64,000 nucleotides of DNA, taken from Clostridiales bacterium (GTDB taxonomy: Bacteria; Bacillota; Peptococcia; DRI-13; UBA5745). Location of the stretch: assembly GCA_038562165.1 (NCBI GenBank), contig JBCFAO010000010.1:18643-82642 (forward strand). Direction: 5' to 3'. The position numbers and the translations under genes were made by a program. The notes below the pieces were generated by a model. That model saw only the letters and a program-made list of their open reading frames with translations, searched no databases and had not been told where the DNA came from. Positions 2,720 to 28,494 of the stretch are shown piece by piece (position 1 is the first letter of the stretch; each line of letters begins with the position of its first letter).

Positions 2720-2881
2720 TTACTCCTGGACTTCAAACATATCTTTGCCGACGCCGCAAAGCGGGCAAACCCAATCCTCAGGAATGTCTTCAAAAGCCGT
2801 GCCGGGAGCAATACCGCTGTCGGCATCACCCACCTCCGGATCATAAACATACCCGCATGCTGTGCAAACATATTTTTTCAT
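2720..2881 (-). CDS. Rubredoxin (possible independent translation unit inside the 2720..3910 ORF)
   Basis: 53 aa: [53 protein letters not shown], with CxxCG...CPxCG. GGAGGAGGTG lies 5 nt before the ATG at 2879-2881. Confidence 0.85.
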
Positions 2882-3910
2882 TTCTTCACCTCCTCCATTT
2901 ATTTCCTGGGAAATACTGTAATATTCTTTTTTGATTATATTTCTGATTTCCAGCCACAGCGCCCTGGCTGAAAAACGCCCGGCGGCAGGAGAAAGGGTGG
3001 GAAAGATACGCAGAAGATTTCTCATGCTGCGATGGTGGGAAGACTCCCGCTTTCTTTCTAAAAGCTGGCGGATATCCCGGTAAAAGCGGCGATAGGAAAG
3101 CTTGACCGCCCTTTCCTTTTGGTTGGCCGCCGCCGCTAATTCTCCCTTTAAAAGCCTCAAGGCAACCCGTAAATCCTCATTGGCCTGCTCGATCTTTTTC
3201 TGAAGAGTTTCTCCCTGGGCCGTTAAATTATGCAAAAGCTGGGCCTTGGCCTCATCGATGCCCCGGCGCCATTTTTCCCGGTGAAGCTGCTTATTTCTCT
3301 CGTATTCCTGAATTTTTTCTTCGTATTTCCTTTGTCTTTCTCCGATTTCCCTCTCCAGCTTTTCAGCATAAGCTTCCAACTCTTGTATCACCTTGCCGAA
3401 ATCGGCAGCCCGCCGCAAGGAGGCGGCCAGGTCCAAAAAGAAATAAAGCAGAAATAGACTTGTGATCATTAGCTGCCGCTGGGGAGCAAAAAGACTTACC
3501 AGCTTGGCCAGCCCGGGATGGACAAGCTTCATTACGACTACGCCCAGGACTCCCCAATAAAGGGAATTCAGCAGACAAACCCGGCCGGACAGATTGAATT
3601 TGTACTGGGAATAATCCCACCATTTAATTTTAAAAGCTCTCTCCAGCATCCATCCTGCTGCGTATTCCAGCAGCGAAAGCAAGAAAAAAGAGGCAATAAA
3701 AAGCAAGGCCGGATTGCCGCTGACTCCTTGCAGGATATAAACGATGATAATACCGCCGAAACCGTAAACCGGAAGAAAAGGACCGTGCAAAAAACCGCGG
3801 TTGACCCATTCCCCATCCAATACCCGCACATAACAACACTCTATTATCCATCCCAGAAAGGCGTAAGCCATGAAAAAAAACACACCCCTGATGACTGCTT
3901 CGCCGGGCAT
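2720..3910 (-). CDS. Multi-pass membrane protein (PF06541-like 'putative ABC-transporter type IV' N-domain) plus long coiled coil, reading in frame into a rubredoxin module
   Basis: 396-aa ORF. N-terminus [37 protein letters not shown] is typical of that family. The middle ~170 aa are K/E/R/Q/L-rich heptad-like sequence. No stop separates it from the rubredoxin. Confidence 0.65.
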
Positions 3911-4086: not shown

Positions 4087-4848
4087 TTACTGCCAGGCAG
4101 CCAAGGCTCCGGCGGCCAGGAAAAACACTTGTTCCCGCAATTCCTTCTGCTCCATCCAGCCCCGGTTATCCCAAAGGGGACCGGCCAGGCTGTCGCCGCT
4201 ATAAAGAAGCTGGGCAAAATCCACTCCCCTGAAAAGGGCTACCGCCGCTAAAGCCGCACATTCCATATCCACCGATGTACAGCCTTGAGCTAACCGGCGT
4301 TCCTTGCGTTTTTTGGTTTCCCGGTAAAAGCCGTCGGTGGTCCAGGTCTTGACCCGGCTAAAGGCATAGCCTTTAGCGGTAAGGCTTTGGCAAATGCATT
4401 CAACCCCCGCTGCCGATAAAACCACTTCCTCCCCGGGGGGCAGGTAATGGTAAGAGGCGCCCTCATCCCGCACCGCACTTTCCGGCACCATCAAAGCGCC
4501 TACGGGCCTGTCAGCCACCAAAACGCCGGCGCCGCCGCAGGCCATTATCCGTTTTGCCCCCCAGGCAATTAAACGCTCCTCCATCAATATGCTGTAAGAA
4601 GCGCCGCAGCCGGGATGTATGACCCCTAAAGTCCGGCCTTCCCATTCTAAGGTGTATAGCTTGTTAGGCCCGTTTTCCGTGGGGTGGATATGGCAGACCT
4701 TTAGCTTGCCTTCTCCTTCCAGCTTCTCCAAGACATCCTTAAAAAAACAAAGCAGTACATTTGGCGGCAGATCCGCCGGTCCTTTGGCCCGTCCCGGCTC
4801 AATAATTGCTTCTCTTGCATCGTCAAATTCCAGTATAGGAAAGGTCAC
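4087..4848 (-). CDS. Nucleoside phosphorylase family protein (PNP_UDP_1, uridine-phosphorylase-like)
   Basis: 253 aa with ..GCGASYSILMEE..ACGGAGVL..VDMECAAL.. motifs. The start overlaps the stop of the upstream gene by 4 nt. Confidence 0.65.
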   Translation of the reverse strand: MTFPILEFDDAREAIIEPGRAKGPADLPPNVLLCFFKDVLEKLEGEGKLKVCHIHPTENGPNKLYTLEWEGRTLGVIHPGCGASYSILMEERLIAWGAKRIMACGGAGVLVADRPVGALMVPESAVRDEGASYHYLPPGEEVVLSAAGVECICQSLTAKGYAFSRVKTWTTDGFYRETKKRKERRLAQGCTSVDMECAALAAVALFRGVDFAQLLYSGDSLAGPLWDNRGWMEQKELREQVFFLAAGALAAWQ

Positions 4849-5933
4849 TGCCCCTCCGCCTCCTTCTCCGTATAAGCTAATACAAAGTAACTGGTAACCT
4901 CCTGGCCGGCTATTCCCGTCAGCCGGCCGGTATTGGTATGGGCCATGACCGCCGGCCCGGTCAGCGCCCGGTCAAGACTATAACGGACCATAGCCGCCAC
5001 CAGAGTAGGACTGTCCAGATAATCGCTGCTTAAGCCGGCCAGAGTGCGCCAATCACCTTTTTCAAGGAGTTGAGCGGTTTTCTCATCGTACCTGGCTGCC
5101 TCATCAGCCTTTTGGTGATGGGAAAAATCCACGGAGATCAAGAGCAATCCATCCTCTTCCAGCCAAGGGTCCAATACCCCAAGGAGCTTTTCCAGATCCT
5201 TCATTGGGTATTGATAATGAAAAAGCAGCGGTACAACCGGTGTGTCCGGCAAAAATTTGGCCAGCCAGGGAATAACCATGCCTAAGCTGTGCTCTTGGGG
5301 AAAGCATTCCACAGCCTCTGCCGCCAAGCCCTCCCGGAGCAGGGCGGCAATAATCTCTTTTTGAGGCTCTACCCTGCCATAGGCCGTCTGCCAGCCGGCA
5401 GAGGTCACAGCGGCGGCGGGGCCGATATTTTGATGATTTGGCCCCATCAGAATGATAACGCCGGGTTTTTCCTGCCGGCCGGCCAACTCTTCCAAGGCAT
5501 GGATGGTTAATCCTGCCGCCGGCAAATGGTGGGGCAGGGTCAGGCAGCGGATACGGCCCCCTTCCGCCCCGTCCTTTAAATGGATGGCCCAGCGGTCTTC
5601 CTTCGCCATAGCCAGGGCCTCCTCCATCTGGCGGCGGTTAAGGTGCTGGCCGGTATCGATGATCTCGCCAGGAGACTGATTGCCGGCAGGGGCAGTAAGA
5701 GCGGCCCCTGGATCTGTATTGTCCGCGGTGCTGCTTCTGCCGCTGCTGCCGCCCTCGCTAAAGCCGCCAGCACCGTCGCCGCCGCTATTGACGCTGTCCC
5801 CGGCCCCTGTACTGCTATCGCCCGCTTGGGCCAGAGCGGCCAAGCGGATCAAGAGGAACAAAACGGCCAAAAGCAGAATCAGGACCGGCAGCGCCCGCCG
5901 GCCCTTCAATTTATTCCCTATCCTGTTCGTCAT
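4845..5933 (-). CDS. Memo-like (AmmeMemoRadiSam system protein B family) protein with N-terminal membrane anchor and G/S/D-rich linker
   Basis: 362 aa. TM segment ALPVLILLLAVLFLLIRLAALA, low-complexity linker, then MGPNHQN..WQTAYG..EHSLGM..VDFSHH.. typical of the Memo/dioxygenase-B fold. Confidence 0.6.
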   Translation of the reverse strand: MTNRIGNKLKGRRALPVLILLLAVLFLLIRLAALAQAGDSSTGAGDSVNSGGDGAGGFSEGGSSGRSSTADNTDPGAALTAPAGNQSPGEIIDTGQHLNRRQMEEALAMAKEDRWAIHLKDGAEGGRIRCLTLPHHLPAAGLTIHALEELAGRQEKPGVIILMGPNHQNIGPAAAVTSAGWQTAYGRVEPQKEIIAALLREGLAAEAVECFPQEHSLGMVIPWLAKFLPDTPVVPLLFHYQYPMKDLEKLLGVLDPWLEEDGLLLISVDFSHHQKADEAARYDEKTAQLLEKGDWRTLAGLSSDYLDSPTLVAAMVRYSLDRALTGPAVMAHTNTGRLTGIAGQEVTSYFVLAYTEKEAEGQ

Positions 5934-5974: not shown

Positions 5975-8900
5975 CTAATGAATATAAACTCTGCCGGCGG
6001 CGGTGACCGCCATTTGATTGGACAGGCGGGAGTGGACCAGCATGGCCGGTTCGGCCAGATAGCTGCCGGGCATAGCCACCCGCACTGAGTATTGCAGCCT
6101 GCCTTCCAGAGCCTCCTGACCCTTATATAGTCCGAAGGTCAGCCGGTTGCCCTCTTCCTTCAAGAACCAGACATCGGGATAAGACCCCTCTGCTTTTTGC
6201 TGCAGATCCAGAGTGACGTAACGTAAACCTGTAGGCAAATAATCAACAATATTGTAGCTGCCGTCTGGAGCCGAGGCGTCAATGCGGTAATCAATGACTA
6301 CCTGAATCTTGCCGTTCATGGGCAGGCTCCATTTTTCCTGATTGCTGACCCGGTAGCTGCGGCTGATTTGCAGATATTCGGCGGCGTTAGGGGCAGGTTC
6401 AGGATAGCCCGGTTTTTGGTATTGGGATTCGGCAATGATGGAACCGCTGACCTGGCTGATGCTGATGGACTGCCGCTGCTCCGGCGTCAATAATAAGGTA
6501 TAGCTGGGGGTTTTCGTTAAATCCACCATGGTTTCTTCCCCGTCCAACGTATAAGTAAAGCTGGCGGTATCGCCGATCTTCTCGCAAGCTGCGCGTAAGT
6601 AAACCAACTGTTCCAACAGAAAATACTCTTTTTCACTGGGGTTTTCCAATAGGTAGCGGTAAAGCCCGGCGCTTTCCGGCAGATCAAGAACTGCCGCCAC
6701 CACCGCCATCTGGGCTGTGGCCTCCAGGATTGCCGTCCTGTCGTCGCTGACGGCAGCCCGGTAGAGACCGCCACCCAAATCCTCTGCCCAGACAGCCACT
6801 AAGTTTTGAGCATAAGTGAGGGCTTCATTGCCGCTGCCGGCAAAAATCAAGGCGCAAACCAAATTCAACTGTTGCTTGCCGGTAAGCTCCTGCCCTTGAT
6901 AACGGTTTTCCTGTAAAGCCTGACGGATCTGGGACAGCACCGGCTGGCCGCTGGCTGCCGCTCCCCACAAGGCCATGGTTGGATCGATGCCTTTGTCTGC
7001 CCCGTTCTCCAATAAGTCCATAAAATACATAGCCAAAGCATCCCGGGAAAAATACCGGCCGCCGGCGGCAGCCGCCCAAAGGCTGGTGTAGATATCCGAT
7101 TGGCCGTAGGGCAAAAAGGCAATGCCACCGTCCGGGTTCTGATAGCGCAGAATTTGCTCCTGTTCCTCTTTGACGGCTGCCGGCATGGTATTCCACCAAT
7201 CAATTTGAAAATGCTTTTTCAGCAGTGTTCTGGCTTCCAGAGCTGCCAGCCGCTGTTCTACCCTTACGGAGGCCTGACCTGCCAGCAAGTGCAGTCCCTG
7301 CAAAGCCTGGTTTCTTGCCTGGTCGCTGAAAACCACCGTCGTCATGCCCTCGTCATCCCCCAGAGGCAGGTAATTGTTTTCCAAAGCGATCTCTTCACGG
7401 GCAGTATAGCTTTGCCGGCTTTTAACCACATGGAAAAGCTGGGTAACGCTGTCGCTGTGATTATCATATTTGCTGTGGACCTGCAGTGTATAATCACCTG
7501 CAGCCATGGCCGGCAAAGACAGCTCCTGCCAGCTAAAAGCCGGGCCCGACAATGTCCGGCTGAATCCCGTCTCGGGGATGTTGACCGTCCACTCCACCGG
7601 CAAAGAACTCTCCTGGCTGATAAGGGTGCCTGCCGAACGCAAGCCGAGTATGGGTTCGTCCTGATCCAAAATAGGACCGTTAAAACGGATATCCGTAAAA
7701 AAGGGCAAGCTGACGCTGATAGCAGCCGAACCGCTGCCGGCCCAAATATCCGGCTTATAGGCCTGCCAAACCACCCGCCAGGTGGTGATATTATCGGGCA
7801 GGGTAAACTCTGTACGGATCAGACCGTTTTTGTCCGTATAAAGCGTACGGAAAATTACGGTGTCCCTGAATTCCTCCCGGTAGCCGTCTCCTTCGCCCCC
7901 CTCAGCCATATTGCCGCCGCCGCCGTCGGGATGGCTCAAAGTCGTCTTGTAATTGAAATCATACAGATTTCCTAAAAACACTTGCCAGCCCATGTTGACC
8001 CATTGCTCCTGAACGGAAAGCAGAGCTTCGTCAATGAGATTAAGGCTGATAACCCCCTCTACCGGCCGGTTGGCGGCATCGGTGAGCTTCAAATCCATGA
8101 CCACCGTCTCGCCGGGCCGGTACTGGGCCTTATCCGTTTTGATCTCCACGTTGAGCTCTCGCTCAGCCGGGTCCATGGTGGCTTGAGCCGCATAAGCCGC
8201 CGGCAGATACTTGCGGCCATCAAAATATACGGCCATTATATTGGCGCCGGGAATATCTTCCGCACTGAAACGGAAACTATAGGCGTTTTCTGCACTTACC
8301 TGGTAGTGCTTGATTTTTTCCCGGGCTTTGAAAAAGAGGTAGCGGCCTTCCCCTTGCAAGGGAGCCTGATCTTCATAGAGCTTAAACGTGGCCTCTTCTC
8401 CCAGAAGACAGTGTGCTTTGCCATCGTCCTTTTGGATCCAAAGCCAATGATAAATATAAGGGTTAATCTCTTGGGAAAGCATTTGAGCCGGCGGCAAATA
8501 GAACAGGCGTTTGACCTCCCGGCCTGAACGGTCCTTAAAGGAAATCGCCAATTGGTAGCCATCACCATAAGCCAATTGGCCGCGGAAGGTCTGCTCTCCG
8601 GAACCATCATAGGTCCAATGCAATGTATCTTCCGGAATTTCTTCCAGGCGGTAATCATACACGGGCTCCATTTGCTTGCTGTAGGGATTATATTTCTGTC
8701 CCGTCTCTATCTTATGCCAATACTGGCGTATCAAGGCAGCCTCCATGACCAGGTTGCCGCCGTAAGGCGCCAAAGCCTGATCCTGCAAATCCCCTTCCCA
8801 ATCGGTAATGCGGCTTAGATCCACATCAAAAGCTTTAAGATCGATGGTAAATTCACCGGTCTCCGATGCCGTCCTTTGTACCCGGCCCGCAATTTCCAGA

Positions 8901-11146
8901 TCGCTGGTGAATACGGTGACATAGCTGTCTCTGTAGATTTCTCCTATCTCCGGCAGCCGGGCCATGGCCGAAACGTAATCATTGCCCAACAAGCCGTAAA
9001 TATTGCCGCCGTCAGCTTTCGTCGTAAATTGAATGCGTCCGTTAAAATCTGAAGTGATGGTCCGGCCCGACTCAATAGCCGTACCGGAAAAGGAGATAGC
9101 TTGCTCCGCCAAAGGCGTACCGTCAAAAAAGCTGGTGGTGGCCGTCCACTGCACCGTATCGCCCTTCATCACCGCTTTCTTGTCGGCGGCAAGGGTCAAC
9201 TGATAGGCCGGCTTTTCGTAAATAGCCACCTGGAAAGTACTGCCGCAAATATAGGCATCCTCCAGATACATGCTGAGGCTATAATACCCCGGCGGCAATA
9301 TAGGCAAAGAGAAGCTGCCTTGCAAAATGTCGCCGTTGACACTGCAGGTCTGCTTGATGGTTTTATCCGCCAGATAAGTTTCCAGCCGCAGCGTTACTTC
9401 TTTTACCTCGTTAGCCTTCTCATCCCGGGGAGCGATAAGGCCGAAGAAATACAGGGTATCCCCCGGCCGGTAAAGGGGCCGGTCTACATAAAGATAATTC
9501 CAATAAGCTTTCTGGGTCTTCCTTTCCTCCTGCCATTTTTGGCGTTGCGGGTAACCGAAGCCCCAATCTTTATCCGCCAGCAGAACCTGTTTTTCCTGGC
9601 TGCGGATATCATAAATCCGGACTCCGTCTCCAGGAGGCAGGCTTTCTATATAAGCCAGTCCCTGGCCGTCGGCAGTGATTTTTTTTGTGTTATTGCCGGT
9701 CCATACCTGGGCGCCGGCGGCTGCCTGCCCCGTAGCCAAATCGTTGATCCAAAGCAGAGCCTCCTCCTCATTGGCAGACAAATAAGCACTGAGATCCGTT
9801 ACCTGAAACAGTAGCTGGCAGGTCTGTCCCTCCAGGGAAAACTCCGCCAAATAAAAACCGGCTGGCAGACTTTCCGGAAAATACAGATACCAGGAATAAT
9901 CAATCTGCTGTCCCGTCAGATTGAAGCTGGAAAGAAGATTTAAGCCCTCGGTGGCAACCATGTTTTCCCGGTCAAAAGACAGCCAGTCCCGGGTTTGCAT
10001 TTTTTCGATAAGAGCGGCCTGGTATTGGTCGCTGCCGCCATAAGCATAGACGTCTACCTTAACCTGGGGAGCCGGGTCCTTTTCGGCGGCAGCCCAGTCG
10101 TTGTAATAAAATTGGACGTAAGGCCCCTCCCCTGTACGGAAGGAGAGGTTTTGCCCCTGGAGGCCAAAATAGGAATTTTCCTCAGGATGATTTTCCGGCC
10201 CCTCCGTCTGAAAAACCACCTTCAGGCCTTCCGGAGTTTTGCCGCCGCCCCCTGCCGGCTGCAGTCCCTGGGGAATGTTCACCTCATAAACGGTCTTATA
10301 AGCTAAAGGAGCCGAGGGCAAGTAAAGGGCCTTATTTTGCTCAACTTGCCAGGTTCCCGGTATTTCCGGCGTAAAGGTCACTTCTTTTTCTATTGCAGCT
10401 TTATCCGGCGGCGCCGTAAAATATAGCTCCAGAGTGGTGCTGACCGGCACCATCGATGTATTGGAGCGGGGCAGAGTCCCTGTCAACCGGAAGGAGGCCT
10501 GGGTCTGAAAAGCCCAGGTATAAGAACCTCTGGCCCCCAGGTCCGCCAGGCTGTTTTCCGGGTCAAAAGCAATCCGGTAAACGCTGTTTTCTTCCAAAGG
10601 CTCCACAGGGATTAATTCGTACTCTTTGCCGCCTTTTTTGCCCGCCAGCTCATAATCGAAAGCAGGCTCCACAATAAGAGCTTTTTCTACCAGTTCCTTA
10701 GGCAGGGCCTCCGTGGATGTGATGAGAAAGCTGCCTGCGGGATTGACCAGGCTGCCGTCTGCCAGCGTAGGCGTAATCGAAATCACGCCTTTGAAGCTTT
10801 GGGGCAGCTCTTTGGGCAGAGAAACCTCCCGGGCCAGAGGTAAAAAAGAACTCATCCCCAACAATAAGACAGCGCAAGCCGCCACAGCCCCCAGCCAAAG
10901 CCGCTGTTTTTTCTTTACGGCAGGCAGCTTAAACTCCGGCCTCTGTTCCTTAGCTTCCTTTCCGCCTCTAAACAGGGGCTGGGCGGCAGGCTCCTCTTCT
11001 TTGACAGCCAGGGCCTTCTTGATCTCTTCTGCAGAGAGCCCCGCCGCCAGCAGAGCTTCTTCCACTACCTGATCGTAAAGGGCGGGAGCTGCGATTTTTT
11101 CCAGCCGTTCTTTTTCGGCTGCCATGAAATTATCGATTCTATTCAT
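5975..11146 (-). CDS. Membrane-anchored alpha-2-macroglobulin-family protein; putative anti-sigma factor by position
   Basis: 1723 aa. The ATG at 11144-11146 lies inside the last codons of the sigma gene (8-nt overlap), with GGGAGG 8 nt upstream. About 85 aa are cytoplasmic, followed by TM LWLGAVAACAVLLLGMSSFL, then Ig-like and macroglobulin repeats. A2M signatures: YRPGETVVMDLKL, LIDEALLSV, FRDTVIFRTLYTD, PDNITTWRVVWQAY. No CxEQ motif. Confidence 0.75.
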   Translation of the reverse strand: MNRIDNFMAAEKERLEKIAAPALYDQVVEEALLAAGLSAEEIKKALAVKEEEPAAQPLFRGGKEAKEQRPEFKLPAVKKKQRLWLGAVAACAVLLLGMSSFLPLAREVSLPKELPQSFKGVISITPTLADGSLVNPAGSFLITSTEALPKELVEKALIVEPAFDYELAGKKGGKEYELIPVEPLEENSVYRIAFDPENSLADLGARGSYTWAFQTQASFRLTGTLPRSNTSMVPVSTTLELYFTAPPDKAAIEKEVTFTPEIPGTWQVEQNKALYLPSAPLAYKTVYEVNIPQGLQPAGGGGKTPEGLKVVFQTEGPENHPEENSYFGLQGQNLSFRTGEGPYVQFYYNDWAAAEKDPAPQVKVDVYAYGGSDQYQAALIEKMQTRDWLSFDRENMVATEGLNLLSSFNLTGQQIDYSWYLYFPESLPAGFYLAEFSLEGQTCQLLFQVTDLSAYLSANEEEALLWINDLATGQAAAGAQVWTGNNTKKITADGQGLAYIESLPPGDGVRIYDIRSQEKQVLLADKDWGFGYPQRQKWQEERKTQKAYWNYLYVDRPLYRPGDTLYFFGLIAPRDEKANEVKEVTLRLETYLADKTIKQTCSVNGDILQGSFSLPILPPGYYSLSMYLEDAYICGSTFQVAIYEKPAYQLTLAADKKAVMKGDTVQWTATTSFFDGTPLAEQAISFSGTAIESGRTITSDFNGRIQFTTKADGGNIYGLLGNDYVSAMARLPEIGEIYRDSYVTVFTSDLEIAGRVQRTASETGEFTIDLKAFDVDLSRITDWEGDLQDQALAPYGGNLVMEAALIRQYWHKIETGQKYNPYSKQMEPVYDYRLEEIPEDTLHWTYDGSGEQTFRGQLAYGDGYQLAISFKDRSGREVKRLFYLPPAQMLSQEINPYIYHWLWIQKDDGKAHCLLGEEATFKLYEDQAPLQGEGRYLFFKAREKIKHYQVSAENAYSFRFSAEDIPGANIMAVYFDGRKYLPAAYAAQATMDPAERELNVEIKTDKAQYRPGETVVMDLKLTDAANRPVEGVISLNLIDEALLSVQEQWVNMGWQVFLGNLYDFNYKTTLSHPDGGGGNMAEGGEGDGYREEFRDTVIFRTLYTDKNGLIRTEFTLPDNITTWRVVWQAYKPDIWAGSGSAAISVSLPFFTDIRFNGPILDQDEPILGLRSAGTLISQESSLPVEWTVNIPETGFSRTLSGPAFSWQELSLPAMAAGDYTLQVHSKYDNHSDSVTQLFHVVKSRQSYTAREEIALENNYLPLGDDEGMTTVVFSDQARNQALQGLHLLAGQASVRVEQRLAALEARTLLKKHFQIDWWNTMPAAVKEEQEQILRYQNPDGGIAFLPYGQSDIYTSLWAAAAGGRYFSRDALAMYFMDLLENGADKGIDPTMALWGAAASGQPVLSQIRQALQENRYQGQELTGKQQLNLVCALIFAGSGNEALTYAQNLVAVWAEDLGGGLYRAAVSDDRTAILEATAQMAVVAAVLDLPESAGLYRYLLENPSEKEYFLLEQLVYLRAACEKIGDTASFTYTLDGEETMVDLTKTPSYTLLLTPEQRQSISISQVSGSIIAESQYQKPGYPEPAPNAAEYLQISRSYRVSNQEKWSLPMNGKIQVVIDYRIDASAPDGSYNIVDYLPTGLRYVTLDLQQKAEGSYPDVWFLKEEGNRLTFGLYKGQEALEGRLQYSVRVAMPGSYLAEPAMLVHSRLSNQMAVTAAGRVYIH

Positions 11147-11633
11147 GCAAAGCGCCTCCCATTTGTTGCTTTAAAGTCTCCAAAGCCCGGCTCAACCGGG
11201 ACTTTACCGTCCCTTCCGGAATCTCCAGTATTCTGGCAATCTCCTTATATTCATAATCGAGATAAAAACGCAGGTGAATGACTTCCCGGTGGATCTCCGG
11301 TAATTGGCAGATATATTGGCGCAACATTAATTCTTCTTCGATGGCCAGCCCGCAGCCGCCTTCTGCCGCTAAGGCTTCCTCAATGGGCAGCGTCTTCGGG
11401 TTTTTTCGCCAAAACTCCCGGCAGACATTAACCAATATCCGCTTGCTCCAGGACAAAAACGCTTCCTTTGAGCGTAAAGTATGAATTTTTTCAACTACCT
11501 GCAGCGTTGTTTGGGCAATTGCATCCAAAGCGTCGGCTTCATTTCCTATAAGGGAATAGGCCAGGCGATAATACATCTGCTTTTTTTCCAGCAATTGACC
11601 AACCAAGGCTAATTCCTCATCATTTAAAGCCAT
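11139..11633 (-). CDS. ECF-type RNA polymerase sigma-70 family factor
   Basis: 164 aa. Region 2 (..ADALDAIAQTTLQV..) and region 4 HTH (YKEIARILEIPEGTVKSRLSRA). AGGAGGG lies 5 nt upstream of the ATG. Confidence 0.85.
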   Translation of the reverse strand: MALNDEELALVGQLLEKKQMYYRLAYSLIGNEADALDAIAQTTLQVVEKIHTLRSKEAFLSWSKRILVNVCREFWRKNPKTLPIEEALAAEGGCGLAIEEELMLRQYICQLPEIHREVIHLRFYLDYEYKEIARILEIPEGTVKSRLSRALETLKQQMGGALHE

Positions 11634-11724
11634 ATCTGCCCTCCTGCTATTCTATATTCAAGATGATCATCTTCTGCTTTTTGTTCCATGCTCTTCAATA
11701 CAGAATATCATATCTCCTGTTCTT

Positions 11725-11773
11725 TTTCTAACGCCTCGGTAGAAAATTTTTCGATTGCAGGAAAATTTTCTTG
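11725..11773 (-). promoter_or_regulatory. Conserved promoter-like module with two GAAAATTTTC-type palindromes (copy A), upstream of the ECF sigma operon
   Basis: Minus strand: AAGAAAATTTTCCTGCAATCGAAAAATTTTCTACCGAGGCGTTAGAAA. It aligns over ~50 nt with 35555-35601. Confidence 0.5.
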
Positions 11774-11795
11774 CTTTTTAGCGTTTCAACGAATG

Positions 11796-22449: not shown

Positions 22450-23226
22450 TCAAGGGGCGGAATAGCTATCGTAAACCAGCTTTGCTATTTTGCCTATAAT
22501 CTCCCTGCCTTCCTTATTACTAAGGGTCCGGTGGGTAAGTACGCAAAGGATACAAGTGCATTGAGGCAGGTGCATAATGCCCACATCATGCTCCAGCAGG
22601 TCCAAGTCTCCGGTTTTATGGGCTACGGTTATCTCTTCCGGCAAATATAGCTGCAGCCTGCCGGTAACCTGCTGTTTTTTTAGAATCTCCAGCATACGGG
22701 CGCTGTACTCTCCATCCACATTGTCTCCCCGATAGATCAGTTCCAGCAGAGCCAGCATATCCTTGGCGCAGGTGTAATTTTCCCTGCCCTCTTTTCTGGC
22801 CTGGGCATCCATCATTTTGCGCTGCAGTTTTGTTTCGCCCAAGCCCAGGCTTTGGCAAAGCCTGTTGACGGACTCCATGCCAATTTTGTCGATCAAAATA
22901 TTGGTGGCCAGATTGTCGCTGACGATGATCATCAGCGTTATTATTTCTTCCAGCGTAAAGACATGGCCCGGCTTCAGCTCTTTTAAGATGCCGTCGCCGC
23001 CGGTCATCATGGCGGCTTCCACCATAATCTCATCTTCCAGAGTCATCCCGCCTTTTTTTACCCGGTTCATGACTTCCGACATAATCGCCAATTTAATTAA
23101 GCTGGCCGAGGGAAAAATCATCTCCTCATTGATCAGTATGGTTTCTCCCGTATCGAGGTTTTTAAAAGCCACCCCAATATTCCCTTGGTTTTCCTTGATA
23201 AACTCCCGAAGGGCTTTTTCCAGCAT
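22450..23226 (-). CDS. Class A beta-lactamase-fold serine hydrolase
   Basis: SASLIK (SxxK), VSDNLA (SDN) and HKTGD (KTG) are all present; 258 aa. Confidence 0.7.
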   Translation of the reverse strand: MLEKALREFIKENQGNIGVAFKNLDTGETILINEEMIFPSASLIKLAIMSEVMNRVKKGGMTLEDEIMVEAAMMTGGDGILKELKPGHVFTLEEIITLMIIVSDNLATNILIDKIGMESVNRLCQSLGLGETKLQRKMMDAQARKEGRENYTCAKDMLALLELIYRGDNVDGEYSARMLEILKKQQVTGRLQLYLPEEITVAHKTGDLDLLEHDVGIMHLPQCTCILCVLTHRTLSNKEGREIIGKIAKLVYDSYSAP

Positions 23227-24962: not shown

Positions 24963-27278
24963 ATGAAAAAAAGGTTAGCATCTGTCCTTTTGATCCTGGT
25001 TTTCCTTTTGACATGGGCCTTGCCCTGCTTCGCTGCAGAAACGGCAACCTTCAATAATGCTGTGTACCTGGGCGTAGTAGGCTACAACACTCCAGCTACG
25101 GCTAAAAACCGCAATATAGAGAACCTGAAAAACTTCTCTTATTATTTTTTCGTTGACGGACAAGTTGAGACCTATAAAATTTCCCCCGACAATGATTTCG
25201 CTATTAACAATATGCTGGCGGAAGGCTATGTATTCGACATCACCGTGGAATATGACGAAGAACATAACGGCAAGGTCATTGCCGCCGGCATTCCCCAGCC
25301 TGCGGCCACCGGGGCTATCTACTCTTTCAGCGACAGCTCCCTCAATGTGACCGGACAGGAAATTGCCCTTACCGATACTACGGCAATTTACAGCATCACC
25401 AGCCAGGCCGGCGGCACACTCGTGGAGCCGGGAGTTTTAGCTGCCGGCAAAACTGTAAAGGTCTACGGCAACCCGGCGGAAGCCGTGTTTCTGACTTTTG
25501 TAGCCGAACCTTACCAGGCGCCGGTGGAAGGCGTTGCCGGCAGGAAAACGCTGAAAAACGTGCTATCTACGGCTCTTAATCCCGTGGGCACCTGCCTCTA
25601 CGTCTATGGCGGCACCTGGGAATGGCAGGATGAAGGCGTATTGGCACCCGGCGGCTCTTCAAGCCCCCAGGCCACCAACATCGGCTTACATCAAACCTGG
25701 CTGGATTTCTTCCAGTCCCAGGATGAAAATTATGTTTACCGCAATAATGCCGACCCGACGAAGAGCTATTATCCCCATATGGGCTACAACGAATATTACT
25801 ATGCAGGCACCGATTGCTCCGGCTATATGGGTTGGCTGGTTTACAATATTGCCAATACCCAAAGCGGCAACCCGGGCTATGTCACCTCTGCCAAGCTGGA
25901 AGCCAAGATGTTTGCAGACGAGGGCTTCGGCACCTGGACCCCCTCCCTCAATAGTGAAAGCATTCAACCGGAAGACTTCAAACCCGGCGATATCTTCAGC
26001 ACGACCGGCCATACCTGGATATGTCTGGGCAGATGTGAAGACGGCAGCTTGGTCATTGTACACTCCACTCCCTCTGCCAGCAAAACCGGTAAAGATGGTG
26101 GCGGTGTACAAATCAGCGCCGTTGCTCCCAAGGGCGCCAGCACCATGGAATGTGAAGCCTATGAACTGGCTAAGGAATACATGGCCAAGTACTATCCGGC
26201 TTGGAGCCAGCGCTACACACCAGTCGTCAAAACCTGGTCTGCTTATGTGGAGAATTCCGGCGGCAATACCGAATCTACCATCGGCAAATTCTCCTGGGGT
26301 CTCGGTGAGGGCGGCTATTTGACAGACCCGGAGGGCTACGCCAACATGACGGCCAACCAAATATTGAAAGACCTCTTTGGCGAAGCCGGTGATGAAGAGT
26401 ATGTGACGGACCGTTCCGGGCTGGCAGGCAAAATAGCCGCCGCCGGGGCTTTAACGGAAGCCGATTATACGGCGGTAAGCTGGCAGGCTTTAAGGGCAGC
26501 CCTCAGCGCTGCGGAAGAAGCCATGGCCCAGACGGATTTGCTGCAAACAGATTACGATAAAGCTTTAGCTGATCTGACCAACGCATTAGACAATCTGGTA
26601 CTTGTGGAAAGCGACAAGATGCTGGTAGGCGTTTCCGCCGCCGCCACCAGCCCCAATAATAAGCCGGTGGAATACCTGTTCTCCTTGCGCCAGGCCGAGC
26701 GCCTGATGAACATATTGATTGAATTTGAAGTGGACCTGACCATTTTGAAAAACAATCCCAGCTATGAAGCCGCCAACGGTTTCTACGCCATATCCGGCAG
26801 GGAAAACCAGGATATTGTCTTTACGAAGATCAACGATAATACCTGGAAAGGCAGTATTCGCTTGCTTTCTCCCAATACCCAGGGTTCCAGCTTCCCGGGC
26901 ACCACGGAATTATTGAAGCTGGCCTTCGGCAGCCGCGCCTTGGGGGATGCCACTTTAAAAATCACCAACATCAAAGCGGCGGCCTTAGACGATAATGGCA
27001 AAGAGTTTTTCCTTGATTGGGGCTACAATCCTCAATCTACTACCACCAACATCGTTAAGCACGTGGTATATTCCATTTACGACCTGAATCAGGACGGCGC
27101 CATAGATGAGCTTGACCTGGCCCGGGCCCAAAAATACTACCAGTGCAAAGAAGGCGACAACCAATGGGATCCCTGGAACGGCGATGTTCAGGATTGCGGC
27201 CGGGTGGCTGACGTCAACGGCGATAAGGTTGTGGACATAGCTGACCTGATCCTGATCCTCAGGAACTTTACGAAATAG
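24963..27278 (+). CDS. Secreted multidomain protein: NlpC/P60-like cysteine peptidase + helical FIVAR-like segment + cohesin-like beta domain + C-terminal dockerin
   Basis: Signal peptide MKKRLASVLLILVFLLTWALPCFAAE. GTDCSGYMGWLVYN...GHTWICLG...VHSTPS form a Cys/His/His set. The C-terminus carries two Ca-binding repeats, DLNQDGAIDELD and DVNGDKVVDIAD. Confidence 0.7.
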   Translation: MKKRLASVLLILVFLLTWALPCFAAETATFNNAVYLGVVGYNTPATAKNRNIENLKNFSYYFFVDGQVETYKISPDNDFAINNMLAEGYVFDITVEYDEEHNGKVIAAGIPQPAATGAIYSFSDSSLNVTGQEIALTDTTAIYSITSQAGGTLVEPGVLAAGKTVKVYGNPAEAVFLTFVAEPYQAPVEGVAGRKTLKNVLSTALNPVGTCLYVYGGTWEWQDEGVLAPGGSSSPQATNIGLHQTWLDFFQSQDENYVYRNNADPTKSYYPHMGYNEYYYAGTDCSGYMGWLVYNIANTQSGNPGYVTSAKLEAKMFADEGFGTWTPSLNSESIQPEDFKPGDIFSTTGHTWICLGRCEDGSLVIVHSTPSASKTGKDGGGVQISAVAPKGASTMECEAYELAKEYMAKYYPAWSQRYTPVVKTWSAYVENSGGNTESTIGKFSWGLGEGGYLTDPEGYANMTANQILKDLFGEAGDEEYVTDRSGLAGKIAAAGALTEADYTAVSWQALRAALSAAEEAMAQTDLLQTDYDKALADLTNALDNLVLVESDKMLVGVSAAATSPNNKPVEYLFSLRQAERLMNILIEFEVDLTILKNNPSYEAANGFYAISGRENQDIVFTKINDNTWKGSIRLLSPNTQGSSFPGTTELLKLAFGSRALGDATLKITNIKAAALDDNGKEFFLDWGYNPQSTTTNIVKHVVYSIYDLNQDGAIDELDLARAQKYYQCKEGDNQWDPWNGDVQDCGRVADVNGDKVVDIADLILILRNFTK

Positions 27279-27291
27279 CAGGTTTCAGCCT

Positions 27292-27335
27292 AGGGGCTCA
27301 TCCCCAGGGCCTTTCAGGGCCCTGGGGAAGCCCCT
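27292..27335 (+). other. GC-rich stem-loop between the dockerin and SLH genes
   Basis: AGGGGCT-CAT-CCCCAGGGCC-TTTCAG-GGCCCTGGGG-A-AGCCCCT gives 10+7 bp of perfect pairing. There is no T-run. Confidence 0.7.
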
Positions 27336-27360
27336 TCTATATGGATAAAGGAGGAGGCTT

Positions 27361-28494
27361 ATGACAGCATATTTGAAATCAAGAAGCCTTCCGCTGCTCT
27401 GCTGCTTAGTCGGGCTCCTGCTGATCTGGCATCCTCCGGCCTTGCAGGCGGAAGCAGTTCAAAGCTCCCCCAGCGAAATCCTTCTGTCTCCCGGCGAAAA
27501 GGAATGCAGTATTACCGTGATCGTAACCCTTAAGGAAGCTTGCGCCGGCATTGAGTTTTCTTTAGATATCGGTACAAAAGAGCATCTGCAGTTCAGCCGT
27601 CTTGAGTTGAGCAACTCCTTAAAAAAGCAAGGGGCCATACCCACTCCCGGGGGCATACTGCCTACGGGCTTCTTTGCAGGCAGCAACCGTTTCAGTGAGA
27701 GGGTTGAGGTAGGCAAGCTTTACTTTACCTTCACAGGCAACGACCCCTTGCCGATTGCGCTGACACAGATGAAGGTTTTCCGCATAGCCGGCCAGGATCA
27801 AGTTGGCAGCACCAGCCAAACTACCGGGCTTTTTGAAACCGCCGTAAAGCGGCGCAGCGGCGGCGGCAATGGCGGCGGCGATAATATTATCGTTGAAATT
27901 ATAGAGGCGCCGGGAGTTCCCCTGGCCCAAAGGAAAAGCTCCAAATATTTTGACGACGTAAAGGGCAGTTTTTCCTGGGCAGTGGATGTGATAGACGGCC
28001 TCTATGAAAAAGGCGTGGTTAAAGGTATCGGCCAGCGTTTATACGGTCCCGCCGCCAATATTACCCGCTGTGATTTTATCGCTATGCTGGTGCGGGCCTT
28101 TGACCTGAAGGCTTCCTTTACGGACAACTTCAGCGATGTGCCGCCGGACAGCTATTATTATGAAGCTGTGGGCATTGCCAAAGCCCTGGGTATTGCCATA
28201 GGTGACAACAATAAATTCCAGCCCCGTCAACCCATCAGCCGCCAGGACACGATGGCGCTGCTGCAGCGGATCTTTGCCTATAAAAATAAAAGTTTGCCCC
28301 CAGGCACGGACAACGATCTGCTGGGCTTCACCGACCAAAGGGCCATCAGCCCTTACGCCCGCTCTGCCGTCGCCACTCTGGTCAAGGCCAAACTCATTGT
28401 AGGCAATGACGGAAAAATCAATCCACCGGGCTGCACCACCCGGGCGGAAATGGCGGCGGTGCTCTATCGGGCCCTGGAGTATCTGGAGCAATAA
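27361..28494 (+). CDS. Cell-surface anchor: cohesin-like domain + Gly-rich linker + three SLH domains
   Basis: Signal peptide present. LSPGEKECSITVIVTLKEACAGIEFSLDIG..LQFSRLE is cohesin-like. The three SLH repeats begin FDDVKGSFSWAVDVID, FSDVPPDSYYYEAVG and FTDQRAISPYARSAV. Confidence 0.7.
   Translation: MTAYLKSRSLPLLCCLVGLLLIWHPPALQAEAVQSSPSEILLSPGEKECSITVIVTLKEACAGIEFSLDIGTKEHLQFSRLELSNSLKKQGAIPTPGGILPTGFFAGSNRFSERVEVGKLYFTFTGNDPLPIALTQMKVFRIAGQDQVGSTSQTTGLFETAVKRRSGGGNGGGDNIIVEIIEAPGVPLAQRKSSKYFDDVKGSFSWAVDVIDGLYEKGVVKGIGQRLYGPAANITRCDFIAMLVRAFDLKASFTDNFSDVPPDSYYYEAVGIAKALGIAIGDNNKFQPRQPISRQDTMALLQRIFAYKNKSLPPGTDNDLLGFTDQRAISPYARSAVATLVKAKLIVGNDGKINPPGCTTRAEMAAVLYRALEYLEQ

What the first reader, a model, noticed from the sequence alone, without database searches (positions are those of the whole stretch)
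5975..11633. ECF sigma factor coupled to a 1,723-aa single-pass membrane protein whose ectodomain is a thioester-less alpha-2-macroglobulin: candidate protease-sensing anti-sigma factor
What the sequence shows:
- The 164-aa ECF sigma ORF ends inside the start of the giant ORF (8-nt overlap, with its own GGGAGG SD). This is the standard sigma/anti-sigma arrangement.
- The giant protein has ~85 cytoplasmic residues with no zinc HxxxCxxC motif, then one TM helix, then Ig-like and macroglobulin repeats carrying A2M signatures (YRPGETVV, LIDEALLSV, FRDTVIF, PDNITTWRVVWQAY at ~7760-7800).
- No CxEQ motif exists anywhere in the protein. The closest match, RVEQ (7253-7264), lies ~175 aa after the NITTWR block, where the thioester would be expected.

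Established knowledge: bacterial A2Ms are protease traps, usually lipoproteins or periplasmic proteins and often paired with PBP1C. ECF anti-sigma factors are activated by regulated proteolysis.

Inference: bait-region cleavage by a foreign protease could serve as the site-1 signal releasing the sigma factor. That would be an envelope alarm for exogenous proteases. I do not know of a described A2M-type anti-sigma factor.
Basis: partly seen in the sequence, partly recalled or inferred. Interest (0 to 1): 0.75.

Follow-up and report, generated by a model that had tools for sequence, protein, structure and literature searches.

The report
Sigma factor held by macroglobulin-type membrane protein
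A small stress-type sigma factor gene overlaps a 1,723-residue membrane protein whose outer part is a thioester-less bacterial alpha-2-macroglobulin and whose short inner tail resembles known anti-sigma tails, so the cell probably ties gene switching to the state of a surface protease trap; I found no published description of this pairing.

Summary
A 164-aa ECF sigma gene (11139-11633, minus strand) overlaps by 8 nt a 1,723-aa ORF (5975-11146). That ORF has an 83-residue Cys/His-free cytoplasmic tail, one TM helix, and a complete bacterial alpha-2-macroglobulin ectodomain. An invariant Arg replaces the thioester Cys (RVEQ aligns to CxEQ).

The anti-sigma reading is well supported:
- In 70 scorable species-level loci, an ECF sigma lies directly upstream in 18, and all 18 have a cytoplasmic tail.
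- Sigma and tail are present or absent together, even between sister sequences.
- At least three different ECF lineages are paired with this ectodomain.
- Tail residues 1-36 are profile-homologous to the N-termini of DUF4179 proteins. Those proteins partner the sigma's closest non-A2M relatives (the RsiV/ECF30-type world).
- An ECF-type promoter, GGAAC-N17-CATCT, is conserved upstream and occurs once in the window.

Protease sensing remains untested inference, and bait cleavage cannot itself be a site-1 cut.

The conserved core is the A2M-like gene plus a membrane-anchored Memo-like gene. Sigma and tail are an add-on to it.

Verdict: a new variant of a known kind, with no published description found. 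Interest 0.65.

The parts
11661..11687 (-). ECF-type promoter candidate GGAAC-N17-CATCT, 27 nt upstream of the sigma start codon
   Evidence: It is conserved at the same place in relatives L081, L082 and L083, and L084 carries CATCA. It is the only match in the 64-kb window, where 0.12 are expected by chance.
11757..11774 (.). Palindromic hairpin GCAGGAAAATTTTCTTGC between the upstream comM-like gene and the sigma promoter; likely terminator of the upstream gene
   Evidence: Terminator-like site in the scan and the sequence itself. It indicates that the sigma operon has its own promoter.
11139..11633 (-). ECF sigma factor, 164 aa (sigma2 + sigma4 only), SigV/TIGR02954-like
   Evidence: Pfam and NCBIfam. 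The closest solved structure is SigW. Relatives at 47-92% identity are always followed by the A2M-like gene.
11139..11146 (-). 8-nt overlap ATGAATAG (start of the giant ORF, stop of sigma); GGGAGG lies 8 nt upstream of the ATG
   Evidence: Sequence. The same 8-nt overlap is seen in L082, L083 and L084.
5975..11146 (-). 1,723-aa single-pass membrane protein: anti-sigma-like tail + TM + thioester-less alpha-2-macroglobulin ectodomain
11006..11146 (-). Cytoplasmic three-helix segment, residues 1-47 (helices 2-17, 24-34, 39-47); candidate sigma-binding domain
   Evidence: The AF2 secondary structure has low confidence, pLDDT 53-64. Residues 1-36 align end to end with the N-termini of 70 DUF4179 proteins: hhalign probability 95.5%, P 1.5e-8, score 36 against a maximum of 15.6 in 100 column shuffles.
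10898..11005 (-). Disordered, charged cytoplasmic linker, residues 48-83, ending in KKKQR (positive-inside)
   Evidence: pLDDT below 50. It is the least conserved part of the protein, with 0.17 pairwise identity.
10835..10897 (-). Transmembrane helix, residues about 84-104, containing AVAAC
   Evidence: Hydropathy and AF2 helix 84-101.
10787..10834 (-). Disordered juxtamembrane segment, residues 105-120; the most plausible place for a site-1 cut
   Evidence: pLDDT below 50. The site-1 role is inference.
10205..10492 (-). Bacterial Ig-like domain (Big_5), residues 219-314
   Evidence: Pfam, 6.6e-12.
9251..9496 (-). MG2 macroglobulin domain, residues 551-632
   Evidence: Pfam, 1.2e-12. Aligned to ECAM (YfhM) in the PDB profile search.
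8015..8404 (-). A2M bait-region domain (A2M_BRD), residues 915-1044
   Evidence: Pfam, 1.2e-8.
7865..8014 (-). Bait-like flexible loop, residues about 1045-1094 (SHPDGGGGNMAEGGEGDGYREEF)
   Evidence: pLDDT is below 50 at model residues 163-169 and 184-215. It sits at the canonical position between BRD and MG7. It is moderately conserved in the family and expanded in P0020-P0024.
7688..7861 (-). A2M family domain (MG7-like) carrying LPDNITTWR, residues 1096-1153
   Evidence: Pfam, 1.3e-4, above gathering score. The motif is nearly invariant in the family.
6581..7321 (-). Thioester-domain-like twelve-helix region, residues about 1276-1522
   Evidence: AF2 model helices 397-643. hhalign to thioester-bearing A2Ms gives probability 99.95% over 619 columns.
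7253..7264 (-). RVEQ, the degenerate thioester site; R1295 replaces the Cys
   Evidence: It aligns column for column with C-x-E-Q of thioester-bearing A2Ms. R1295 is invariant in 23 family members.
5978..6373 (-). C-terminal beta-sandwich (MG10/receptor-binding-like), residues about 1592-1722
   Evidence: AF2 strands. Aligned to the ECAM C-terminus in the PDB profile search, 32 bits.
4845..5933 (-). Membrane-anchored Memo-like protein (362 aa), the conserved partner of the A2M-like gene
   Evidence: Pfam Memo 1.5e-17 and NCBIfam AmmeMemoSam_B at 83.5 bits. A homologue lies immediately downstream of the A2M-like gene in 55 of 80 loci. 53 of 55 have an N-terminal hydrophobic segment, and His135/136/167/215/272 and Asp269 are conserved.
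4087..4848 (-). Nucleoside phosphorylase/AMP-nucleosidase-like gene; its start overlaps the Memo-like stop by 4 nt, so it is probably the last gene of the operon here
   Evidence: Pfam PNP_UDP_1 2.2e-30. It is conserved only in the nearest relatives, L081 and L013.

Best explanation
This is an ECF sigma / anti-sigma pair whose anti-sigma factor is a fusion. A short cytoplasmic sigma-binding tail of the kind found on DUF4179 (RsiV-type, ECF30-like) anti-sigma factors is joined through one TM helix to a surface-exposed, thioester-less bacterial alpha-2-macroglobulin.

That macroglobulin family normally occurs without any sigma. It is a membrane-anchored or secreted protein, always with an extracytoplasmic Memo-like partner, in monoderm lineages (Firmicutes, Chloroflexi, CPR).

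Proposed mechanism:
1. At rest the tail sequesters the sigma at the membrane.
2. When the ectodomain is engaged, cleaved or destroyed, most plausibly by an exogenous protease acting on the bait-like loop, the disordered juxtamembrane segment becomes accessible to a site-1 cut. The cut could be made by signal peptidase, as for RsiV, or by the attacking protease itself.
3. A RasP/RseP-type site-2 protease then cuts the Ala-rich TM helix, and the tail is degraded.
4. The freed sigma transcribes its own operon from GGAAC-N17-CATCT. This replaces the consumed single-use trap together with its Memo-like partner.

Shown here: the architecture, the A2M fold, the degenerate thioester site, the conserved adjacency, the co-occurrence of tail and sigma, the tail homology, and the conserved promoter motif.

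Inferred: sigma binding, the nature of the signal, every proteolytic step, and autoregulation.
For: - The sigma is directly upstream and overlapping in the window and in all six close relatives fetched.
- In 70 scorable species-level loci, 18 have both a tail of at least 45 aa and an adjacent sigma, 5 have a tail only, 0 have a sigma only, and 47 have neither. Fisher p = 1.5e-12, from at least 4 clades.
- Sigma-less sisters of sigma-linked genes keep the protein from the TM onward, with no remnant of sigma or tail.
- Three different ECF lineages are paired with this ectodomain: TIGR02954/SigV-like, BldN/SigM-like and PRK11924-like. This argues for repeated recruitment.
- The sigma's nearest relatives outside this pairing (41-46% identity) are followed by DUF4179 proteins.
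- Tail residues 1-36 match the N-termini of 70 such proteins: hhalign 95.5%, P 1.5e-8, shuffle maximum 15.6 against an observed 36.
- RsiV is a DUF4179 ECF30 anti-sigma that binds its hostile enzyme directly and is then cut by signal peptidase (PMC6066255).
- The A2M identity rests.
- RVEQ aligns to CxEQ.
- Thioester-less MagD still traps a protease after bait cleavage (PMC5764988).
- The promoter motif is conserved and occurs once in the window.
Against: - No binding or complex prediction could be run.
- The tail has no Pfam match, no relative among solved structures, and low model confidence.
- The DUF4179 proteins used for the comparison are themselves uncharacterised, and RsiV itself was not compared.
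- Tails of types B and C show marginal or no similarity to them.
- The bait-like loop is short and moderately conserved rather than hypervariable. An invariant Arg at the thioester position hints at a function other than simple trapping.
- Bait cleavage alone would leave about 950 ectodomain residues on the anchor.
- The signal-peptidase-like AxA motif seen in relatives is degenerate in this protein (read by eye).
- Five loci have long tails without a sigma. Some of these are probably over-extended ORF calls.
- The promoter motif has only 10 specified bases, and in 12 of 100 shuffles the window held at least one match.
Confidence: 0.55

Rival explanations
1. It is a true sigma/anti-sigma pair, but the ectodomain does not sense proteases. 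The A2M-like body, with Arg in place of the thioester Cys and with its Memo-like metalloprotein partner, binds or processes something else, such as a cell-wall or S-layer component, a glycan or another hostile protein. Alternatively it simply reports envelope or folding stress. Sigma release follows that ligand or stress.
For: - R1295 is invariant where a lost catalytic residue would be expected to drift.
- The bait-like loop is conserved rather than variable.
- The universal partner is a Memo-like protein with conserved His/Asp metal ligands, which has no place in any known protease-trap model.
- No protease or PBP genes are in the operon.
Against: - The whole A2M body plan, including the BRD, a disordered loop at the bait position, the TED-like domain and the C-terminal MG domain, is retained.
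- Protease trapping is the only experimentally shown activity of bacterial A2Ms, including the thioester-less type II (PMC5764988).
Confidence: 0.28
2. The coupling is to export rather than to a signal. The TM segment acts as a long signal peptide. Signal peptidase releases the macroglobulin constitutively once it is translocated, the remnant is cleared, and the sigma is freed. Transcription is therefore tied to successful secretion of the protein, as in a FlgM-like checkpoint or feed-forward loop, and not to an external cue.
For: Sigma-less relatives and type-B sigma-linked relatives carry an AxA-like motif (AQA|AEV, VQA|SEV, ALA|GEI) a few residues after the hydrophobic segment and just before the first Ig-like domain (read by eye). 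[quoted passage not shown]
Against: - In the window protein and its type-A relatives the equivalent position reads SFKG, GFRG or DFTG, which does not fit a signal-peptidase site.
- Constitutive cleavage would make the anti-sigma ineffective.
- No signal-peptide predictor was available.
Confidence: 0.07
3. The tail is not an anti-sigma domain. The sigma is merely co-transcribed as the dedicated activator of the A2M-like/Memo-like operon and is controlled in some other way, while the tail serves localisation or another cytoplasmic contact.
For: No known anti-sigma Pfam domain and no zinc motif were found. The model confidence for the tail is low. Five loci have tails without a sigma.
Against: - No sigma-linked locus lacks a tail (0 of 18).
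- Sigma and tail are gained or lost together.
- The tail is homologous to the N-termini of the partner proteins of the sigma's closest relatives.
- The overlapping reading frames are typical of sigma/anti-sigma pairs.
Confidence: 0.1

Closest known systems
SigV-RsiV of Bacillus subtilis and related ECF30 / DUF4179 anti-sigma pairs (PMC6066255)
   Same: - Firmicute ECF sigma whose best NCBIfam matches are TIGR02954 and SigV.
- Overlapping downstream gene for a single-pass N-in protein with a short, zinc-free cytoplasmic tail.
- The tail is profile-homologous to the N-termini of DUF4179 partner proteins.
- Conceptually, RsiV's ectodomain binds the hostile enzyme (lysozyme) directly, and that binding licenses site-1 cleavage.
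   Different: - There is no DUF4179 domain, meaning the TM plus amphipathic helices that carry the signal-peptidase site.
- The ectodomain is a 1,600-residue alpha-2-macroglobulin instead of the small RsiV or DUF5643 domains.
- A 35-residue disordered linker separates the tail from the TM.
- The sigma scores below the SigV and TIGR02954 cut-offs.
Type I bacterial alpha-2-macroglobulins (E. coli ECAM/YfhM, Salmonella Sa-A2M)
   Same: These are the best structural matches for both halves of the protein (Foldseek E 3e-36 and 6e-25). The order of MG domains, BRD, MG7, TED-like domain and C-terminal MG domain is collinear. LPDNxTxWR and RxxFxDT motifs are shared.
   Different: - No thioester (RVEQ instead of CxEQ).
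- No lipobox; the anchor is an N-terminal TM helix.
- No pbpC neighbour.
- Monoderm hosts.
- An N-terminal Big_5 Ig-like domain and a cytoplasmic tail.
Type II bacterial alpha-2-macroglobulins (MagD / YfaS; PMC5764988)
   Same: It lacks the thioester but keeps a bait-position loop. It is associated with the cytoplasmic membrane and depends on operon partners. MagD shows that thioester-less trapping is possible.
   Different: - No magABCEF-type partner genes; the partner is a Memo-like protein.
- It is anchored by its own TM helix.
- It is found in Firmicutes, Chloroflexi and CPR rather than Gram-negatives.
- It is coupled to a sigma factor.
RseA/DegS/RseP and RsiW/PrsW/RasP regulated intramembrane proteolysis
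   Same: A single-pass anti-sigma with an Ala-rich TM helix. AVAAC here resembles the VAA|C site-2 product of RseA; this is recalled from memory and was not tested. The expected sequence is a site-1 cut, a site-2 cut and then cytoplasmic degradation.
   Different: The class I zinc or four-helix anti-sigma domain is absent. No dedicated site-1 protease gene is nearby. The AA[AC]/A[VA]AA TM motif is not significantly enriched in sigma-linked members (8 of 19 against 13 of 55).

Membership tests
ECF (group 4) sigma-70 factors | Only regions sigma2 and sigma4, about 160-200 aa | tested here: met
   164 aa with Sigma70_r2 and Sigma70_r4_2 and no r3. The TIGR02937 superfamily model scores 63.5 bits against a cut-off of 42.9.
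ECF (group 4) sigma-70 factors | Own operon preceded by an ECF-type promoter (AAC-containing -35, CGT/ATC-type -10) | tested here: met
   GGAAC-N17-CATCT lies at 11661-11687 and is conserved in L081-L083, with CATCA in L084. It occurs once in 64 kb. Promoter function was not tested.
ECF30 group (SigV type) | Match to the group's own model or assignment by ECF Hub | tested here: inconclusive
   The best NCBIfam hits are TIGR02954 (103 bits, cut-off 188.5) and SigV (98.9 bits, cut-off 190), both below cut-off. ECF Hub models were not available. The nearest non-A2M relatives pair with DUF4179 proteins.
DUF4179-type (RsiV-like) anti-sigma factors | Gene directly downstream of, and overlapping, the sigma gene; single-pass, N-in | tested here: met
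   8-nt overlap, one TM helix, and KKKQR on the N side.
DUF4179-type (RsiV-like) anti-sigma factors | N-terminal cytoplasmic segment homologous to that of family members | tested here: met
   hhalign gives probability 95.5%, P 1.5e-8 over residues 1-36, against 70 DUF4179 proteins. The shuffle control reached a maximum score of 15.6 against 36 observed.
DUF4179-type (RsiV-like) anti-sigma factors | DUF4179 domain itself (TM plus amphipathic helices with the signal-peptidase site) | tested here: not met
   There is no PF13786 match in the window protein at E up to 10. In true members the domain covers residues 38-126, after the shared segment.
DUF4179-type (RsiV-like) anti-sigma factors | Binds and inhibits its sigma | not testable with these tools
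This needs a two-hybrid assay or AlphaFold-Multimer.
Class I (zinc-binding) anti-sigma domain | HxxxCxxC motif / zf-HC2 or RskA domain | tested here: not met
   There is no Cys or His in residues 1-83 and no Pfam match.
Alpha-2-macroglobulin / thioester-protein superfamily | MG-domain array, bait-region domain, MG7 (A2M) domain, TED-like helical domain and C-terminal MG domain, in that order | tested here: met
   Pfam; PDB profile search, E 3e-25 to YfhM; AF2 models with pLDDT 83 and 78, both with bacterial A2Ms as top Foldseek hits.
Type I bacterial A2M | CxEQ thioester | tested here: not met
   No CxEQ is present, and RVEQ aligns to it.
Type I bacterial A2M | Lipoprotein signal and pbpC (PBP1c) neighbour | tested here: not met
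   The N-terminus is an 83-aa tail followed by a TM helix. The neighbours are Memo-like and PNP-like genes.
Type II bacterial A2M (MagD/YfaS) | No thioester but a bait region | tested here: met
   No CxEQ is present, and there is a disordered loop at 1045-1094 between BRD and MG7.
Type II bacterial A2M (MagD/YfaS) | Six-gene mag/yfa operon partners | tested here: not met
   The operon is sigma, A2M-like, Memo-like and PNP-like. The conserved partner across 55 of 80 loci is Memo-like.
Protease-trapping macroglobulin (function) | Bait cleaved by proteases, followed by conformational change and retention of the protease | not testable with these tools
   Only the loop's position and disorder are seen. 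It is not hypervariable, with pairwise identity 0.31.

The most novel reading that the evidence does not exclude
A self-replenishing protease alarm. The surface macroglobulin is at once trap, sensor and anti-sigma factor, so that consumption of the trap by a foreign protease releases the sigma and rebuilds the trap. This wiring evolved independently at least three times, with three different ECF sigma lineages, in Firmicutes and in CPR bacteria. It was built on a previously unrecognised third type of bacterial alpha-2-macroglobulin that always works with an extracytoplasmic Memo-like metalloprotein.
Probability: 0.33. Interest if true: 0.82.

Novelty: new variant of a known kind. Interest (0 to 1): 0.65.

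Why it matters
ECF anti-sigma factors are modular sensors, but few have a known ligand. RsiV, which binds lysozyme, is the textbook case of an anti-sigma that directly recognises a hostile enzyme. A macroglobulin-type anti-sigma would be a second case, this time for proteases, and it gives a concrete hypothesis that is easy to test.

The work also does three other things:
- It defines a widespread family of thioester-less A2Ms in monoderm bacteria. In one scan, 557 candidate stretches in species-representative genomes encoded a relative of the query protein (only the best 80 were examined); these come from Firmicutes, Chloroflexi and CPR.
- It finds an invariant Arg at the thioester position of that family.
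- It finds an obligate Memo-like partner, a combination for which I found no description.

Bacterial A2Ms have so far been discussed almost only for Gram-negative periplasms. How thioester-less forms work, and why they need partner proteins, is an open question that this family could help to address.

Tried and rejected
- **Pfam on the tails.** Scans of four tail types at E up to 10 gave nothing meaningful. The only hint was DUF4179 at E = 1.5 for type B.
- **Tail profile against solved structures.** A PDB profile search gave only chance hits.
- **Tail profile against 1.84 billion representative proteins.** This found only other A2M-like proteins at significant E-values. A 48-position profile is too short to reach DUF4179 proteins at that library size. 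The targeted profile-profile comparison succeeded instead.
- **Ala-rich TM motif.** I tested whether an RseA-like Ala-rich motif marks sigma-linked members. It is not significantly enriched, at 8 of 19 against 13 of 55.
- **Sigma-70 promoter and terminator scan.** The promoter count was no better than shuffled sequence, and the terminator-like count (17 against 10.9 ± 3.3 in shuffles) was not interpretable beyond one hairpin.
- **Literature.** Searches for anti-sigma with macroglobulin, for ECF with macroglobulin, and for A2M with Memo gave no relevant paper. The main text of the ECF reclassification paper does not mention A2M, MG2 or Big_5, and its supplements are not held.
- **Rejected: a type I or type II A2M operon.** There is no pbpC and there are no mag genes.
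- **Rejected: a class I zinc anti-sigma domain.** The tail has no Cys or His.
- **Rejected: mobile element or phage context.** The window is ordinary spore-former chromosome.

Full report
**1. Observation**

The minus strand carries a 164-aa ORF (11139..11633) and a 1,723-aa ORF (5975..11146). The junction reads GGGAGG-cgctttgc-ATGAATAG. The large ORF therefore starts 8 nt after a Shine-Dalgarno sequence, and its first 8 nt are also the last 8 nt of the sigma gene.

- The small protein has Sigma70_r2 and Sigma70_r4_2 and nothing else. It passes the NCBIfam ECF superfamily model. Its best specific matches are TIGR02954 and SigV, both below their cut-offs. SigW is the closest solved structure.
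- In the large protein, residues 1-83 have no Cys or His.
- It has a single hydrophobic helix at about 84-104, with KKKQR on its N side. The tail is therefore cytoplasmic and the rest is outside.
- Pfam finds Big_5, MG2, A2M_BRD and A2M above gathering score.
- No CxEQ exists.

**2. The ectodomain is a real bacterial alpha-2-macroglobulin**

- A profile of 23 family members hits E. coli YfhM/ECAM and Salmonella A2M in the PDB (E 3e-25 and 5e-22). The matched stretches are collinear from the MG region to the C-terminal domain.
- AlphaFold2 models of residues 880-1723 (pLDDT 83.3) and 1-900 (pLDDT 78.0) both have Salmonella A2M 4u48 and ECAM as their best Foldseek matches in the PDB (E 3e-36 and 6e-25). 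Eukaryotic A2M, CD109, TEP1 and complement C3/C4/C5 follow.
- The C-terminal half contains a twelve-helix TED-like region (about residues 1276-1522) and a final beta-sandwich.
- A profile-profile alignment with thioester-bearing bacterial A2Ms gives probability 99.95% over 619 columns. It places R-V-E-Q (1295-1298) exactly on C-x-E-Q.
- R1295 is invariant in the family. The site is thus a fixed Arg, not a decayed position.
- Residues about 1045-1094, between the BRD and A2M Pfam domains, are disordered in the model. They occupy the bait position.
- That loop (SHPDGGGGNMAEGGEGDGYREEF) is short, Gly/acidic-rich and moderately conserved, with family consensus GGGxAxGGEGxGxRxDFRDT. It is expanded only in one subclade.

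**3. What is conserved around it**

A scan of species-representative genomes found 557 stretches that encode a relative of the query protein. The best 80 were fetched. They come from Peptococcaceae and other Clostridia, Oscillospiraceae, Dehalococcoidia/Chloroflexi and many CPR lineages.

- *The Memo-like partner.* A homologue of the window's next gene (4845..5933; Pfam Memo, NCBIfam AmmeMemoRadiSam protein B) lies immediately downstream in 55 of 80 loci. It often overlaps the A2M stop by 4 nt. Of these, 53 of 55 start with a hydrophobic segment, and five His and one Asp are conserved. The partner is therefore an extracytoplasmic, probably metal-binding protein. The ancestral and general unit is the A2M-like gene plus the Memo-like gene.
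- *The sigma.* An ECF sigma ORF lies directly upstream on the same strand, with a gap of -44 to +23 nt, in 18 loci. Every one of these has its first TM helix at residue 45 or later. Sigma-less loci nearly all have it before residue 30. The counts are 18 / 5 / 0 / 47, Fisher p = 1.5e-12. This p-value overstates independence, but the sigma-linked loci fall in at least four clades of the ectodomain tree.
- *Gain and loss as a unit.* Within one clade, sigma-linked and sigma-less genes are sisters. The sigma-less ones retain similarity only from the TM onward, with no remnant of sigma or tail.
- *Close relatives.* All six close relatives of the window protein or sigma that I fetched show sigma, A2M-like and Memo-like genes in variable flanks.

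**4. Is the tail an anti-sigma domain?**

Evidence against a known domain:
- The tail has no Pfam match.
- It has no relative among solved structures.
- A profile search of 1.84 billion representative proteins returned only other A2M-like proteins.

Evidence from the sigma's relatives:
- The sigma's nearest relatives outside this pairing (41-46% identity, including cultured Paenibacillus) are each followed by an overlapping gene. That gene encodes a roughly 430-aa DUF4179(+DUF5643) protein.
- DUF4179 is the TM-plus-amphipathic-helix module of RsiV and BAS1627, which are ECF30 anti-sigma factors. In RsiV it holds the signal-peptidase site-1 (PMC6066255).
- In those proteins Pfam's DUF4179 covers residues 38-126. 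It does not cover the cytoplasmic residues 1-37.
- The window tail residues 1-36 align end to end with residues 1-36 of 70 such proteins. For example, MNRIDNFMAAEKERLEKIAAPALYDQVVEEALLAAG aligns with MDRIEEALEREKQKFDSLQAPDEMEWRLRRALDSGK.
- For that alignment hhalign gives probability 95.5%, P 1.5e-8 and score 36.0. The maximum in 100 column-shuffled controls was 15.6.

The window protein thus shares the cytoplasmic module of this anti-sigma family and has exchanged everything beyond it for an A2M body. AF2 predicts three short helices (2-17, 24-34, 39-47) at low confidence, and then a disordered linker to the TM.

The other sigma-linked clades have different tails. Type B is marginally similar to the DUF4179 N-termini and type C is not similar at all. 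Their sigmas also differ: BldN/SigM-like for type B and a CPR example, and PRK11924/PRK09415-like for type C. The same ectodomain has therefore been coupled to at least three ECF lineages. This is hard to explain unless the coupling is functional.

**5. Regulation**

- Upstream of the sigma gene lies GGAAC-N17-CATCT (11661-11687). The same motif with the same spacing occurs in L081, L082 and L083, and L084 has CATCA.
- It is the only match in the 64-kb window, against 0.12 expected by chance.
- A palindromic hairpin at 11757-11774 separates it from the upstream comM-like gene.
- This fits an autoregulated ECF operon of sigma, A2M-like, Memo-like and PNP-like genes. Function of the promoter was not tested.

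**6. Mechanism**

Shown: the architecture, the fold, the adjacency, the co-occurrence, the tail homology and the promoter motif.

Inferred: the tail holds the sigma. A change in the ectodomain exposes the disordered juxtamembrane segment (residues 105-120) to a site-1 cut. A RasP-type protease and cytoplasmic proteases finish the job, and the sigma then re-expresses the operon.

The most economical signal is proteolytic attack, for two reasons. Protease trapping is the only demonstrated activity of bacterial A2Ms, and it holds for thioester-less MagD (PMC5764988). A trap that is consumed by use also benefits from consumption-coupled resynthesis.

The bait-position loop is about 950 residues from the membrane. 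Bait cleavage could only be an upstream trigger, acting through the known A2M conformational change, or the attacking protease could cut the juxtamembrane linker directly.

Several features keep a non-protease ligand in play:
- the invariant Arg at the thioester position;
- the conserved rather than variable loop;
- the unexplained Memo-like partner.

A further rival is constitutive, export-coupled cleavage. It is suggested by AxA-like motifs after the hydrophobic segment in relatives. In the window protein that position reads SFKG, which does not fit signal peptidase (read by eye).

**7. Comparison with known systems**

- It works most like SigV-RsiV: a Firmicute ECF sigma with a zinc-free short tail and an ectodomain that binds the hostile enzyme. 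It is not a DUF4179 protein.
- Structurally it is a bacterial A2M. It fails the defining features of type I (thioester, lipobox, pbpC) and of type II (mag operon).
- It is best described as a third, monoderm type of bacterial A2M, and in a subset of genomes that protein also serves as an anti-sigma factor.
- I found no paper describing either the A2M anti-sigma or the A2M/Memo pairing. The library is limited, and the supplements of the ECF classification paper are not held.

**8. Verdict**

- The finding is real and the A2M identification is correct.
- The anti-sigma interpretation is well supported by comparative evidence (about 0.8).
- The protease-sensing mechanism is plausible but untested (about 0.35-0.45).
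- Novelty: a new variant of a known kind.
- Interest: 0.65.

Noticed in passing
window 4845-5933 (-); L001-L080 downstream of the A2M-like gene: A membrane-anchored Memo-like (AmmeMemoRadiSam-B-type) gene follows the A2M-like gene in 55 of 80 loci, with or without a sigma, often with a 4-nt overlap. It has conserved His135/136/167/215/272 and Asp269. An extracytoplasmic Memo-like partner of a macroglobulin appears undescribed.
   Followed up: partly
window 4087-4848 (-): A nucleoside phosphorylase/AMP-nucleosidase-like gene (PNP_UDP_1) overlaps the Memo-like stop by 4 nt. It is present downstream only in the nearest relatives (L081, L013), so it is probably a lineage-specific passenger in the operon.
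   Followed up: partly
window 2720-3910 (-): An unusual fusion protein of 396 aa: ABC_trans_CmpB membrane domain, a long coiled-coil and a C-terminal rubredoxin. CmpB-type genes recur near the cassette in L081, L082, L083 and L013; the rubredoxin part is recorded only in L081.
   Followed up: no
window 11700-11790: The palindrome GCAGGAAAATTTTCTTGC is followed by a second GAAAAATTTTC copy, between the comM-like gene and the sigma promoter. It is probably a bidirectional terminator, but an operator is not excluded.
   Followed up: no
P0018, P0019, P0021, P0025; L065: Some relatives keep the N-terminal 55-59% of the A2M-like protein. Their C-terminal part carries Hint/intein-type domains (PF07591, PF05203, PF14890), reminiscent of polymorphic-toxin architectures.
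   Followed up: no
L067, L070-L074 downstream genes: In several CPR-like loci the Memo-like gene is 560-674 aa long. It is fused to an additional, unidentified region.
   Followed up: no
window residues 105-125 of the giant ORF; L006, L042, L003, P0010-P0015: Relatives carry AxA-like signal-peptidase motifs (AQA|AEV, VQA|SEV, ALA|GEI) just before the first Ig-like domain. Sigma-less members may therefore be secreted. The motif is degenerate (SFKG, GFRG, DFTG) in the window's own clade.
   Followed up: partly
model m6cb324eae26b (residues 880-1723): The AF2 model of the C-terminal half superposes better on protease-activated ECAM (4ziq TMq 0.59, 4rtd 0.53) than on native forms (0.32-0.33). This may be a modelling artefact of predicting half a protein, or a hint that the thioester-less family rests in a different conformation.
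   Followed up: no
L067, L074, L075, L080: MAGs labelled Gammaproteobacteria or Pseudomonadales carry A2M-like genes that fall among CPR (Collierbacteria and other CPR) sequences in the tree. This suggests mis-binning or mislabelling of those contigs.
   Followed up: no
L013 3614-3642: The GGAAC-N17-CATCT match in L013 falls inside the mechanically called start of the sigma ORF. The true start is probably further downstream, and the promoter is conserved there too.
   Followed up: no
window 22450-23226 (-), 24963-28494 (+), 36543-37376 (-): Envelope-related genes elsewhere in the window: a class A beta-lactamase-family protein, a 771-aa dockerin-containing protein next to an SLH-domain protein, and BacA/UppP. 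None carries the operon's promoter motif.
   Followed up: no
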